Made by a program: the position numbers and the translations under genes
In this document: in pieces, positions 17,570 through 37,031 of the stretch
Numbering within the stretch: the first letter of the stretch is position 1
How the letters are laid out: every line of letters starts with the position of its first letter
Assembly: GCF_032062105.1 (NCBI RefSeq)
Contig: NW_026925544.1
Span: 124,001-188,000, forward strand
From: Saccostrea cucullata
Lineage: Eukaryota
DNA length: 64,000 bases
Direction of reading: 5' to 3'
The notes under the pieces: generated by a model
What the model saw: only the letters and a program-made list of their open reading frames with translations
Database searches by the model: none
Told to the model about the DNA's origin: nothing

Positions 17570-17621
17570 ATGGGATTAATTACTTATTTTTTGATTTCCT
17601 TCACGTTATATTATATGCAAG
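17570..17621 (+). CDS. Exon 1: signal peptide MGLITYFLISFTLYYMQ(G)
   Basis: AAAATGG start context; donor CAAG|GTAGGT, phase 1; completes the signal peptide with exon 2 (GWTQA-QE). Confidence 0.8.
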
Positions 17622-34500: not shown

Positions 34501-37031
34501 AATCATTAGCGCTGAACAATCATATCAAAACTTCAGTAAACTGAGGTGTATTGAGTAAAAATATCGCAGTGCAATGTATGTTTTCTCAGTAGCAATGCCG
34601 TAAATTCCTAAATATAAATGCAAAATTAACTATCCTGTAATTTTGCAAAAAGCACCATTTGTGTAGATTTTTTCTTTTATTTTTCTGGTACCGAAATCAA
34701 TGTAAAATCTCTTGATCAATCATCCCCTCGCAAACGATAGTTCTCACGATTTTGCGATAACAAGAACTCCTGAAAAATAAGGGATCTACAGTACACAGGC
34801 ACGAATATTGGACATCAGTTATTTATGCATATACTGTTTACAAAAATTATTATTCCTGGTCTATGCTGACTTGAGTAAAAGCCACAGTTTTTATTAGTCT
34901 TAATCAAAATGTTCTAGTCTGAGACTTAATCATGCTAATGTAAGTGTTAAACACTGGTAATTTGTTAGAATAAACGGTTAACTTTGTATCTCTTCCAAAG
35001 AAGAACCTCATAGAGCTTTTCATGTTTGAAAATGTGAGAATTAAAAAAAAAGTGATAAAGGTATACTAATATACTGAAAAACATTTTTGAAAGAACATAT
35101 TCTAAGTGTTGTGAACCTCGATGGTATTGACATAAATTTTACGTGAATTTTGACAGGAAACACAGAGCCCTTAATAATGTGCAGTGCCAGTGTCGATGGT
35201 TTACCAGGTTCTAAGCAGGAAAGGACATACAGGGTTGTTGTTCGTACAAGTAAGTACTTTGTTGTACTATAAATTTGTGTCTAATCAGTCTTTCCGTGTG
35301 CAGTCCCCATAGCTTTGTATAATACCTGTGTATGCATGTATTTCTCAATAGTATTACAACTCTCCCTCCATGAAAAAGAAAATCTGAGAAAATTTCCATC
35401 TTTTTTTGTAACATAAAAAGATAATGACAATGCAATTTTCTTATTCCAGTTGATCCCAAATTTAGATGCACCAATGAATCCGCCATTGTGAACAACAAGC
35501 GACACAAGGTTAAATGTGAGGTTTACGGGGTGGAGGGCATCATGTGTAACAAAGTTCTGTGGAAGCGAGGGAACGACGGAAAGACGTATTCACTTGGCGA
35601 TCACGGCCGAATAAATATAGAATGTATGGTGAGTGTTAAAAACCGTCATGGGGCAGGTTTATACTTTGAAAGATAACTCTGACTAAATGTACAGTGAGTG
35701 TTAAAACGTTTATATGTAAAGAAGGATAACTCTAACTAAACATAGAGTGTAGGGTGAGTGTAAAAAACCGTCACAGGGCAGACTTATATGTAATGAAGGA
35801 TAGCTCTAACTGACTAAGAGTGTATGGCGAGATAAAAACCGTCACAGTGCAGGCACTAGAAGGATAACTTTAACCGACTTAATCAGTCAGGGGCATAACT
35901 CAAACAAGTTATTTTCAAAAATAACTCAAATGAGTTATTTTACATTATTTCACAGACACAATTTTTTTTTTGAAAAATAACCTAAATAAGTTATTTTATC
36001 CTACTTGGACATTGGTTTCTTGGAAATTTCATGTTTCCTGCCAATTTGCATTGCATTTTGGGATTCCATTATGTAATACTAGATGGAGTTCACCGACTCC
36101 AATGGAGAATTGGTGAGGAGGTGGAGATAAACAGCATTTTACTCCTTATTTTGTGGTTTTATCCACATGGTGTATATGTCCAATTTTAATCATTAAATAA
36201 AAAAAATTCCCCACTTTTCCCAAGACTTTGAACACTTTTTCTGCATTGAGCAAGGTTTATATTTAGTCAAACATTTGTTTTTGTCTTGGTGCACGAGCAA
36301 AATCCTTTGGTGCACGGGGTGTGAAGTTAGGGAGGAATGACAGAAAATAACTTAAATAAGTTATTTATTTATTAAAGCTATTTTGGAAAAATAACGTGTT
36401 TGAGTTATTAAGGTTGGGAAAAAGTAGGTCATAGCAAAGAGAAGTAACTCATTCAGACAAAAAAATAACTCATTTGAGTTATTTTTGAAAATAACTTGTT
36501 TAAATTATGCCCCTGACTGTTAATGAGTGTTAAAAATGAAAAAGTGCCCATTCACAAGCTTTATTTTTATTTTAAAAATATTTCATTTTTGCAGAAAAAG
36601 AGTGAGGATATGGTAGTAACAACTATGGAGATTCTAGAAGTTACGGCGGAAGATTTCAAGACTCCATTCCGTGTTATCTACAATGATCCCAATTCAAAAA
36701 CAAATGAATATCAACTCTCAATTCCACAAGGTGAGTCATTGTTTGTAATTGTGTCTATTGATGTAAACTATGTGAATTTAATCGGAGGTGCACAACAGCA
36801 AAAAAGTCGTGGCTTATAGGTTGTACAACTCGCATGCCACAGGTAAAAAAATATACACAAACTGTAAATAAATTCTTTTCTGTAGGTCATTATTAATCTG
36901 AAAACATTTTTTAAAATAATAATTCTGAATTTTCTTATTTTGTAGAATACAGTAACTCTGCCATGCCAATAACAACAACATCAGCAGTTTTTGTGTCACT
37001 TTTATCTTTGGCCCTTTCTCTGATATTGTAA
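17570..37031 (+). CDS. GPI-anchored three-Ig-domain cell-surface protein (IgLON/lachesin/DIP-like architecture), 392 aa; join(17570-17621,32224-32487,33329-33448,34216-34464,35157-35249,35450-35628,36595-36730,36946-37031)
   Basis: All 7 introns are GT-AG with matching phases (1,1,1,1,1,0,1), giving a 1179-nt stop-free frame. Signal peptide MGLITYFLISFTLYYMQGWTQA; Ig motifs L.ALC...VRWYHN...DVGNLTCEV; hydrophobic C-terminus. Confidence 0.88.
17935..18576. mobile_element. Young MITE with 136-bp TIRs and 5-bp TSD (hAT5-like)
   Basis: 17935-18070 is the reverse complement of 18441-18576 with one mismatch; CAGG termini; GCTAT on both flanks. Confidence 0.92.
22092..22289. mobile_element. TA-flanked Tc1/mariner-pogo-type MITE
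   Basis: TA-CTGTATACAGGG ... CCTTGTATAGAG-TA; subterminal TTCGCCC/GGGCAAAA motifs. Confidence 0.65.
23180..23630. repeat. 25-bp minisatellite (~17 copies)
   Basis: Unit CAGTCTCTTAGCTAGCTACCCA(T/C)AA, with 21-bp variants. Confidence 0.95.
24295..24876. mobile_element. Second copy of the 35884-36519 MITE, left terminus lost
   Basis: Colinear with ~35910-36519; right TIR ...TTATGCCCCTGACTG intact. Confidence 0.9.
25494..25667. repeat. 87-bp tandem duplication
   Basis: TAAACATTGACTCTGTGGC...TCATTCAACG at 25494 and 25581. Confidence 0.95.
26485..29434. mobile_element. Non-autonomous hAT element, 8-bp TSD, carrying a nested HINE
   Basis: TIRs CAGGGCTC / GAGCCCTG; TTTGCCAG at 26477-26484 and 29435-29442; subterminal TTTTCGCCACTT repeats. 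Confidence 0.9.
26607..28505 (+). mobile_element. Complete Helentron-associated element (HINE) with ~10 satellite units of ~150-167 bp
   Basis: 5' ATTAGCTCACCTGAG..CTCAAGTGAGC hairpin, (GTCC)n microsatellite, tandem units with AAGAACCACTGGGCC, 3' subTIR CTCAGGTGAGC plus palindrome GGCCCATGGGCC; T-rich flanks. Confidence 0.92.
31020..31310. repeat. Degenerate minisatellite, core TTATCTGGCTATCCCTGGTTC (~8 copies)
   Basis: Core motif recurs at variable 20-45 bp spacing. Confidence 0.85.
32224..32487 (+). CDS. Exon 2: first half of Ig domain 1
   Basis: Acceptor TTTTATTTAAG|; WTQAQEYTVSLTP...KALCN...VRWYHN...NISLEFTLL; donor A|GTGAGT. Confidence 0.92.
32547..32773. mobile_element. Old degenerate MITE (Zator/Harbinger-like) in intron 2
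   Basis: GCCATCTT...TTGCCCTC / GAGGGCAA...AAGATGGC inverted ends. Confidence 0.5.
33329..33448 (+). CDS. Exon 3: second half of Ig domain 1 (not in the ORF track)
   Basis: TATTTTAG|; NVQKADVGNLTCEV...SVAIKIR (Ig F-strand D-x-G-x-x-x-C); donor AG|GTAAAG. Confidence 0.92.
33475..33959. mobile_element. pogo/Tigger-type MITE, TA TSD
   Basis: TA-CAGTAAAAC ... GTTTTACTG-TA; repeated CGGATATA(A/G)CGAA subterminal motifs. Confidence 0.9.
34216..34464 (+). CDS. Exon 4: first part of Ig domain 2
   Basis: TTTTCTTGCAG|; EPIASMTF...PSCMVMGSTPKANV...EMEFK; donor AG|GTATGT. Confidence 0.9.
35157..35249 (+). CDS. Exon 5: end of Ig domain 2 (not in the ORF track)
   Basis: TTTTGACAG|; GNTEPLIMCSASVDGLPGSKQERTYRVVVRT; donor A|GTAAGT. 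Confidence 0.88.
35450..35628 (+). CDS. Exon 6: first half of Ig domain 3
   Basis: TTATTCCAG|; IDPKFRC...VKCEVYG...VLWKRG...IECM; donor ATG|GTGAGT, phase 0. Confidence 0.9.
35620..35880 (+). repeat. ~60-70 bp degenerate tandem repeat derived from the exon 6/intron 6 junction
   Basis: TGTA..GTGAGTGT.AAAA.CCGTCA..GGCAG...GATAACTCT.ACT recurs; GTGAGT at 35629, 35694 and 35754, GCGAGA at 35827. Confidence 0.8.
35884..36519. mobile_element. MITE with ~58-bp TIRs and 5-bp TSD (hAT5-like)
   Basis: CAGTCAGGGGCATAA...ATAACTCAAATGAGTTATTTT and its reverse complement at the right end; TTAAT at 35879-35883 and 36520-36524. Confidence 0.92.
36595..36730 (+). CDS. Exon 7: second half of Ig domain 3
   Basis: TTTTTGCAG|; KKSEDMVVTTMEILEVTAEDFKTPFRVIY...LSIPQ; donor AG|GTGAGT. 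Confidence 0.9.
36946..37031 (+). CDS. Exon 8: GPI-anchor signal and stop
   Basis: TTATTTTGTAG|; EYSNSAMPITTTSAVFVSLLSLALSLIL* (small omega-site residues, spacer, terminal hydrophobic tail, no cytoplasmic segment). Confidence 0.88.

What the first reader, a model, noticed from the sequence alone, without database searches (positions are those of the whole stretch)
17570..37031. Hidden 8-exon gene for a divergent GPI-anchored three-Ig-domain surface protein
Seen: eight exons splice in phase into 392 aa: MGLITYFLISFTLYYMQGWTQA|QEYTVSLTP...KALCN...VRWYHN...DVGNLTCEV...PSCMVMGSTPKANV...IMCSAS...VKCEVYG...VLWKRG...EYSNSAMPITTTSAVFVSLLSLALSLIL*. The ORF track shows only four of the exons, in pieces, and exon 1 sits 14.6 kb from exon 2. 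Established: signal peptide + 3 Ig + GPI is the layout of IgLON, lachesin and DIP recognition molecules. Inference: I cannot assign the sequence to any of those families, so it may belong to an uncharacterised mollusc or lophotrochozoan recognition or immune receptor family.
Basis: partly seen in the sequence, partly recalled or inferred. Interest (0 to 1): 0.7.

Follow-up and report, generated by a model that had tools for sequence, protein, structure and literature searches.

The report
Oyster three-Ig surface protein gene cluster
This is a real, spliced oyster gene, already in databases but unstudied, for a protein with three predicted antibody-like domains and a predicted lipid anchor; it heads a recombining cluster of copies and likely helps blood and mucosal cells recognise other cells.

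Summary
Observation confirmed. Eight exons splice in phase into 392 aa, and six of seven junctions appear in the RNA rows shown. The gene is not hidden: the product is identical to RefSeq XP_062607390.1 (uncharacterised, Saccostrea cucullata). The three Ig folds are supported by models; the GPI anchor rests on hydropathy only. It is not an IgLON/lachesin/DIP by the tests run. It belongs to a family found in bivalves, a gastropod, a cephalopod and a nemertean, for which my searches found no description. Its third domain lacks the F-strand cysteine in 33 of 33 members. The closest structural leads are Kirrel/nephrin domains and IGSF21; neither is proven. Its leader and a conserved CRE-like element are single-copy. 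A sibling elsewhere has a transmembrane helix and an ITAM-like tail. The eastern-oyster counterpart is expressed in hemocyte preparations. There is no sign of positive selection (pN/pS 0.33). Best reading: a cell-recognition protein of hemocytes and mucosa, in a cluster organised like CEACAM. Moderate interest.

The parts
17468..17524 (+). Conserved upstream element with a 12-bp palindrome around a CRE-like TGACGTCA (17486-17497); likely proximal promoter
   Evidence: The N-terminal extension of a Crassostrea virginica model (P0050) matches this stretch at 70% over 20 codons, E 3e-4 in the window. An in-frame stop lies just upstream here, so the conservation is likely non-coding. Single match in G000. 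CREB/ATF binding is inferred from the recalled consensus.
17570..17621 (+). Exon 1 coding part: signal peptide, leader type a, single copy
   Evidence: (joint 17618->32221, 29 reads)
32224..32487 (+). Exon 2: end of signal peptide and first part of the V-type Ig domain 1 (Cys46, Trp64, extra Cys75/Cys88)
33329..33448 (+). Exon 3: F-G strands of domain 1 (Cys117); its donor lies in a 42-bp unit that is a minisatellite in sister copies
34216..34464 (+). Exon 4: first part of Ig domain 2 (C2-like; Cys185, GS-T/N-P motif)
35157..35249 (+). Exon 5: end of domain 2 (Cys237)
35450..35628 (+). Exon 6: first part of domain 3 (invariant Cys266 and Cys282; Cys292, Trp297, Cys318)
36595..36730 (+). Exon 7: end of domain 3; F strand without cysteine
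36946..37031 (+). Exon 8 coding part: predicted GPI signal (small residues near 367-370, spacer, hydrophobic end, no cytoplasmic tail) and stop
   Evidence: omega site judged by eye, no predictor run
37032..38047 (+). 3' UTR; RNA covers it to at least 37400; first AATAAA at 38042
   Evidence: true 3' end not shown
59458..59527 (+). Leader exon type b (signal peptide) in front of copy B, which starts just beyond the window (G000:C7681:190578)
   Evidence: three more copies at C7681:199972, 206074, 225684

Best explanation
The gene is spliced into a 392-aa protein with three predicted Ig domains and a predicted GPI anchor, and it likely works as a cell-recognition and adhesion molecule on hemocytes and mucosal tissue, likely binding a partner on another cell through its outer V domain. 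With no cytoplasmic tail it would signal only through partners, such as the transmembrane sibling with an ITAM-like motif (inferred). The window's gene is the founding copy, with the conserved leader and upstream element. Unequal crossing-over and gene conversion have built a tandem array behind it (the mosaic is shown; the mechanism is inferred), and phase-1 exon pairs have moved the V module into other architectures.
For: Fold: three beta-sandwiches, mean pLDDT 80. Domain 1 matches V domains at rmsd 2.0-2.4 over about 105 residues, Z 13-13.8. A domain-3 homologue folded alone gives pLDDT 88 and best matches KIRREL3 Ig5, Z 13.5, rmsd 2.1, 100 aligned. Anchor: 31 of 33 family members end in a hydrophobic stretch within 12 residues of the C-terminus. 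Expression: the C. virginica counterpart LOC111111285 has baseMean 1255 in hemocyte preparations and log2FC +1.2, padj 0.026, towards mucosal agranulocytes (PMC13070813 Table S3). It is listed among modelled genes in gill and gonad files of PMC12040131, with empty effect cells in the rows seen. Array on G000:C7681: A (window), B (two stops, no exon 8), C (intact), and D, E, F (exons 2+3 only). B is C-like up to exon 4 and A-like after it, with a 300-bp tract identical to C, as expected of an unequal crossover. Oyster copies group by genus. P0061 is V-C2-EGF-like-TM with YxxL-x8-YxxL and canonical phase-1 junctions. LDLa-V-C2, LRR-V, V-V-C2-Ig and triple-domain-3 models also exist.
Against: No binding or functional data. 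No positive selection: pN/pS 0.33 over 8 V domains, highest 0.71 in the BC loop; domains 2 and 3 are alike at 0.2-0.4. Domain 1 is not more divergent than domains 2-3 within Saccostrea, only somewhat between genera (52-64% against 59-66%). No inhibitory (ITIM) sibling among the 3 tailed proteins scanned. Hemocyte evidence comes from another species and from sorted preparations in which ciliary genes also rise, so epithelial carry-over is possible. The gene ids were not found in supplements of a C. gigas hemocyte atlas (its id scheme may differ) or of a Perkinsus challenge study. Neural tissue was not examined. The assembly has 23,869 contigs, so some copies may be haplotype duplicates.
Confidence: 0.45

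Rival explanations
1. A neural or tissue-patterning adhesion molecule of Kirrel/nephrin or IGSF21 type. Only the founding copy matters, and the array is neutral churn of an oyster genome.
For: Domains 1-2 align with Rst D1-D2 (Z 14.0, rmsd 4.6, 201 aligned), Neph1 and SYG-1. The best non-antibody profile hit is SYG-2 across domains 1-3 (E 3e-15). Domain 3 best matches KIRREL3 Ig5 and shares its F-strand-entry motif. IGSF21 is first by features for two members (0.94, 0.95). Purifying selection, a single conserved promoter, and broken or partial duplicates.
Against: Only 15-22% identity between oyster and other mollusc members. Expression in hemocyte, gill and gonad data. An intact ITAM-bearing sibling. 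A D/E/F-type V exon is spliced at contig depth 933 against 2085 for the main type in run X9.
Confidence: 0.25
2. A receptor or decoy that binds microbes directly, in a CEACAM-like arms race: GPI forms act as decoys and the ITAM form triggers phagocytosis.
For: GPI and ITAM forms share the V-C2 unit; gene conversion; mucosal bias.
Against: pN/pS below 1 in all 9 regions of the V domain. The ITAM sibling is only 58% identical in V, not homogenised with the GPI copies. Not found in the Perkinsus supplements.
Confidence: 0.15
3. An allorecognition or gamete-recognition locus, like the Hydractinia Alr complex.
For: A cluster of Ig genes and pseudogenes. RNA from other animals differs from the genome at exon-2 positions, two of them amino-acid changing, in states shared with paralogues. 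Listed in gonad files.
Against: No extreme allelic divergence shown. No cytoplasmic tail on the main gene. Ig domains are split over two exons, whereas Alr domains are single exons (PMC9546547 passages).
Confidence: 0.07
4. Much of the array's mosaic look, and RefSeq's seven mixed isoforms, are artefacts of a fragmented heterozygous assembly and of reads from other animals mapped across near-identical copies.
For: 23,869 contigs, 1.17 Gb. Isoforms X3-X6 switch between copies A, B and C, which mis-mapping would produce. Laid reads are mostly 90-99% alike.
Against: Copies differ by 8-20% in exons 2-3 and have different introns and leaders. Tandem paralogues and repeated domains are modelled independently in Magallana and Crassostrea. 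This rival does not touch the window's gene itself.
Confidence: 0.15

Closest known systems
Wirins: IgLON, DIP, lachesin, Klingon (PMC10084454, passages seen)
   Same: Three Ig domains, N-terminal V-like domain, GPI-type tail; DIP and IgLON ectodomains are among the fold hits.
   Different: 10-15% identity in structural alignments; no IgLON or DIP sequence hit at E<=1 (only Dpr2, E 0.59). Domain 3 has no F-strand cysteine, domain 2 is C2-like, and each domain is split over two exons.
Kirrel/Neph and nephrin (Rst, SYG-1, SYG-2, KIRREL3)
   Same: Best structural matches for domains 1-2 and for domain 3 (KIRREL3 Ig5, 2.2 Z above the next row). Best non-antibody profile hit. Shared F-strand-entry motif.
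   Different: Three domains, no transmembrane helix or tail (Kirrel has five Ig domains, a TM helix and a tail: recalled). The sequence signal for domain 3 is weak (E 3e-4) and tied with IL1RAcP (E 7e-5).
IGSF21
   Same: First hit by language-model features for the oyster and the nemertean protein; carries C2-set_2; GPI-anchored (recalled).
   Different: No alignment or tree supports orthology; chordate clusters only; about 70 aa longer.
Vertebrate CEACAM cluster, as an analogy (PMC5112662, PMC2832619, PMC7042247: search listing and start of abstract only)
   Same: Tandem cluster, N-terminal V domain, ITAM-bearing member, gene conversion; GPI-linked members (recalled).
   Different: No specific homology (generic Ig-level hits only); no ITIM partner found; no positive selection seen.
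Hydractinia Alr complex (PMC9546547, passages seen)
   Same: Invertebrate cluster of Ig genes and pseudogenes with non-canonical Ig residues; some members carry ITAMs.
   Different: Alr proteins are transmembrane, have an Fn3-like domain and one exon per domain; no allorecognition phenotype is known here.
Chelicerate sDscam and clustered protocadherins (recalled)
   Same: Tandem V-only cassettes D, E, F, each one Ig domain on two exons.
   Different: No leader found before E or F; constant exons not seen because the contig ends; unrelated proteins.

Membership tests
Immunoglobulin superfamily | Ig beta-sandwich fold in each of three domains | tested here: met
   Pfam finds only domain 1, below the curated cut-off for the window's protein
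GPI-anchored proteins | Signal peptide plus C-terminal small-residue site, spacer and hydrophobic end without a tail | tested here: inconclusive
   Pattern present by hydropathy and in 31 of 33 relatives; no predictor or PI-PLC test available
Wirins (IgLON/DIP/lachesin) | Three Ig domains and a GPI-type tail | tested here: met
   family layout from PMC10084454; the anchor itself is only predicted
Wirins (IgLON/DIP/lachesin) | Family-level sequence similarity to IgLON/DIP/Dpr | tested here: not met
   phmmer of a 94%-identical isoform against PDB: no IgLON or DIP at E<=1, Dpr2 at 0.59. Family profile: Dpr2 8e-11, among antibodies and VEGFR. No true mollusc Wirin was run as a control.
Wirins (IgLON/DIP/lachesin) | Canonical B-F disulfide in the third Ig domain (recalled feature) | tested here: not met
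   0 of 33 members have a cysteine in the F strand; A- and B-strand cysteines are invariant in 33 of 33
Wirins (IgLON/DIP/lachesin) | Placement inside the Wirin clade in a tree | not tested
Wirins (IgLON/DIP/lachesin) | Neuronal expression and Ig1-Ig1 binding | not testable with these tools
   Runs carry no tissue labels
Kirrel/Neph-nephrin | V + C2 N-terminal pair and an Ig5-like membrane-proximal domain | tested here: met
   structural and weak sequence support only
Kirrel/Neph-nephrin | Five or more Ig domains, transmembrane helix, cytoplasmic tail (recalled) | tested here: not met
   three domains and no tail
Kirrel/Neph-nephrin | Common descent shown by a tree | not tested
   no outgroup sequences held
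IGSF21 | Orthology by alignment or tree | tested here: inconclusive
   feature scores 0.94 and 0.95; no alignment available
CEACAM-like paired-receptor cluster (works like) | Tandem cluster with gene conversion | tested here: met
   assembly artefact not excluded
CEACAM-like paired-receptor cluster (works like) | Activating member with ITAM sharing the ectodomain | tested here: met
   P0061 on another contig, motif at 361-376, intact exons; expression not checked
CEACAM-like paired-receptor cluster (works like) | Inhibitory member with ITIM | tested here: inconclusive
   none in the tails of 3 proteins scanned; the family was not fully sampled
CEACAM-like paired-receptor cluster (works like) | Positive selection in the V domain | tested here: not met
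   pN/pS 0.33 overall, 0.15-0.71 by region, 8 paralogues; no site model or population data
sDscam/protocadherin-type variable cassettes | Each cassette has its own leader and splices to shared constant exons | tested here: inconclusive
   No leader before E or F by blastn or by a scan whose control missed leader a; RNA lay uninformative; contig ends 5 kb after F

The most novel reading that the evidence does not exclude
A molluscan counterpart of the CEACAM/KIR-type clusters. One conserved promoter and leader read through a >110-kb array and build isoforms combinatorially from exons of the intact copies, of the broken hybrid copy and of the V-only cassettes, as RefSeq's collinear A-to-B-to-C isoforms would have it if real. 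An ITAM-bearing sibling supplies the signal. The family would be a three-domain, GPI-linked offshoot of the Kirrel/nephrin group, conserved across lophotrochozoans.
Probability: 0.12. Interest if true: 0.75.

Novelty: new variant of a known kind. Interest (0 to 1): 0.42.

Why it matters
The gene itself is an ordinary annotated-but-unstudied model. The family has more value. It has a clear signature (domain 3 without the F-strand cysteine, with an invariant A/B cysteine pair) and spans three mollusc classes and a nemertean. I found no description of it: searches by 12 gene ids and by topic returned none, though most subscription journals are not covered. In oysters it shows the traits of vertebrate immune-receptor clusters: tandem recombination, GPI and ITAM forms, and hemocyte expression. 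It is therefore a concrete candidate for how bivalve hemocytes recognise cells, and a possible hemocyte surface marker in a farmed animal.

Tried and rejected
Dscam-like alternative exons inside the window's 14.6-kb intron 1: none by tblastn or blastn. Homodimer prediction for domains 1-2: no verdict, score 0.03 against a mark of 0.32; it is not evidence either way. RNA lay over cassettes E and F: dominated by repeats; no E-to-F joint among 15 rows shown (101 hidden), so tandem inclusion and mutual exclusion stay unresolved. Codon mixture models in IQ-TREE printed no omega values and were not used. The tree is the quick search only, with long branches meeting; I used it only for genus-level grouping of oyster copies. 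For pN/pS I left out copy B (stops) and the more distant copies on C11428, C11818 and C3112 and the divergent copies at the starts of C13673 and C13774. Pfam on single exons: nothing significant. phmmer of distant members against PDB: 0 hits for P0127, generic hits for P0159 and P0184. IgLON and DIP chains are present in fold lists but tied with many Ig proteins. Supplements with no hit for the ids tried: PMC12064177, PMC12551290, PMC9712504 (one file unreadable), PMC8678459. The supplement of PMC10396302 could not be read and might hold larval cell-type expression. Earlier-finding look-ups by place and by sequence were empty.
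Full report
Observation. All introns are GT..AG, and the exons join to 392 codons and a stop. RNA from four public runs shows 6 of the 7 junctions among the 15 rows displayed; intron 3 is not displayed but is in the identical RefSeq model and in transcript-derived homologues. The product is identical to XP_062607390.1, uncharacterised LOC134269188 isoform X2, labelled Saccostrea cucullata. The gene is real and already modelled, with named counterparts in S. echinata, Ostrea edulis, Magallana gigas, M. 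angulata and Crassostrea virginica at 54-78% identity.

Protein. AlphaFold2 on a 19-sequence alignment gives an N-terminal helix, three beta-sandwiches and a C-terminal helix, mean pLDDT 80. Domain 1 (about 23-145) matches V domains at rmsd 2.0-2.4. Domain 2 has a canonical cysteine pair (185, 237) and a GS-N/T-P motif; 7 of 33 relatives match Pfam C2-set_2. Domain 3 is the family's signature: 0 of 33 members have an F-strand cysteine, cysteines 266 and 282 are invariant, and 292 and 318 are each kept in 23 of 33. The pairings 266-282 and 292-318 are inferred, not measured. A domain-3 homologue (P0071, 51% identical) folded alone is a confident Ig fold, best matching KIRREL3 Ig5 in both fold searches. 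The C-terminus has small residues, a short spacer and a hydrophobic end with no tail, as do 31 of 33 relatives. No GPI predictor was available.

Family range. A profile search of 1.84 billion representatives returned 133 proteins at E<=0.001, including about two dozen full-length relatives of roughly 380-435 aa at 15-22% identity. Of 20 looked up, 11 carry a species name: S. echinata, Mytilus, Solemya, Sinanodonta, Mya, Mercenaria, Mizuhopecten, Dreissena, the gastropod Babylonia, the cephalopod Argonauta and the nemertean Lineus. All are called uncharacterised, hypothetical or Ig-like. The nemertean hit is weak (E 4.5e-5) but shares the cysteine signature.

Relation to known families. IgLON, DIP and lachesin share the domain count, but a near-identical isoform finds none of them in the PDB at E<=1 (only Dpr2, E 0.59), and structural alignments give 10-15% identity. 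The best leads are elsewhere: SYG-2 as first non-antibody profile hit across all three domains, Rst, Neph1 and SYG-1 for domains 1-2, KIRREL3 Ig5 for domain 3 with a shared motif before the F strand (tied in sequence with IL1RAcP), and IGSF21 by language-model features. No tree with these families was built, so kinship remains a lead.

The array. A search of G000 gave 52 exon matches on 9 contigs; the window is C7681:124001-188000. Behind the window's gene (A) lie B (190.6-193.9 kb; stops in exons 2 and 3, no exon 8), C (210.3-216.2 kb, intact) and D, E, F (235-254 kb), each only exons 2+3, after which the contig ends. Leader a and its upstream element occur once in G000. That element holds a CRE-like palindrome and is conserved in C. 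virginica. The duplicates use another leader, whose first copy is at window 59458. B is C-like through exon 4 and A-like after it, with a 300-bp tract identical to C against 50 bp for A versus C. This is what an unequal crossover followed by conversion would leave. E and F are 96.7% alike in exon 3 but 87.5% in exon 2. RefSeq merges A, B and C into one locus with seven isoforms that switch copies in genomic order; these may be mapping artefacts or real read-through splicing. In run X9 a D/E/F-type exon-2 end is spliced to exon 3 at contig depth 933 against 2085 for the main type, so a second V type is expressed; which leader it uses is unknown. A direct lay on E and F settled nothing.

Module shuffling. 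All domain borders are phase 1. Database models include V-V-C2-Ig, V-C2-Ig-Ig-Ig, V-Ig, LDLa-V-C2 and LRR-V. P0061 (LOC134281786, on C11818) is V-C2-EGF-like-TM with a tail holding YxxL-x8-YxxL, which fits the ITAM consensus given in PMC9546547, plus four further YxxI motifs; its exons have canonical junctions. These are gene predictions; their expression was not checked.

Selection and expression. pN/pS over 8 V domains is 0.33, at most 0.71 in the BC loop; there is no sign of diversifying selection at this level. The C. virginica counterpart, tied to A by the shared upstream element, has baseMean 1255 in hemocyte preparations and is 2.3-fold higher in mucosal than circulating agranulocytes (PMC13070813: passages and supplement rows seen). 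It is also listed, without an effect in the rows seen, in gill and gonad models (PMC12040131: passages and supplement rows). Nervous tissue was not examined.

How it likely works. Shown: a spliced, expressed gene and a mosaic tandem array. Predicted: three Ig folds, a signal peptide and a GPI anchor. Inferred: display on hemocytes and mucosal cells, binding through the outer V domain as in other V-C2 surface proteins (established knowledge of nectins, Kirrels, Wirins and CEACAMs, recalled), and signalling through partners such as the ITAM sibling. I give this 0.45, a neural or patterning adhesion role with a neutral array 0.25, direct microbe binding 0.15 and allorecognition 0.07. Separately, there is a 0.15 chance that much of the mosaic is artefact.

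Novelty. Searches by 12 gene or protein ids and five topic searches (listings and abstract starts only, apart from the papers named above and PMC10084454 passages) found no description of the family. Most subscription journals are outside the library, and unread supplements may bear on expression. It is a new variant of a known kind: an undescribed lophotrochozoan Ig family with an atypical third domain and, in oysters, a cluster organised like vertebrate immune-receptor loci. Interest 0.42.

Noticed in passing
window 33427-33468; G000:C7681:191386-191655, 211123-213732, 248758-249051, 254032-257716: A 42-bp unit that contains the exon-3 splice donor is about single in the window's gene but a minisatellite in sister copies (6, 61, 7 and over 80 units in B, C, E, F; 49 and 63 donor-like sites in C and F). 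As 42 is a multiple of 3, later donors could add 14-aa units between domains 1 and 2; in C the frame stays open for about 95 aa.
   Followed up: partly
window 32321, 32374, 32487: RNA of other animals carries different bases here (27 of 38 and 22 of 31 reads in X21 at the first two). Each state also occurs in one or more paralogues: alleles shaped by conversion, or paralogue reads.
   Followed up: partly
window 26862-28347: 166-bp satellite array in intron 1 with very high read depth; resembles the oyster Cg170/HindIII satellite (recalled).
   Followed up: no
window 714-2018, minus strand: Broken reverse-transcriptase-like fragments with a YIDD motif; no Pfam hit at E<=0.01.
   Followed up: partly
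G000:C8113:97337-100592, minus strand: Family copy with exons 2-5 and 8 but no exons 6-7 (a two-domain GPI-type form); it lacks the first cysteine of domain 2.
   Followed up: partly
G000:C5199:3117-15900, minus strand: An extra exon 6+7 pair upstream of exons 4-7: domain-3 block duplication, as in the M. gigas models with three copies of domain 3.
   Followed up: partly
P0013, P0014, P0029 (other oysters): Isoforms with 5-8 extra residues just before the GPI signal, suggesting an alternative micro-exon; no match found in window intron 7 by tblastn.
   Followed up: partly
G000:C7681:98341-98760 (+) and 90704-91135 (-): Two related ORFs upstream of the window that look avidin-like (recalled resemblance).
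   Followed up: no
G000:C3112:3114-6848: A second copy of the P0061-type gene with a stop in exon 3.
   Followed up: partly
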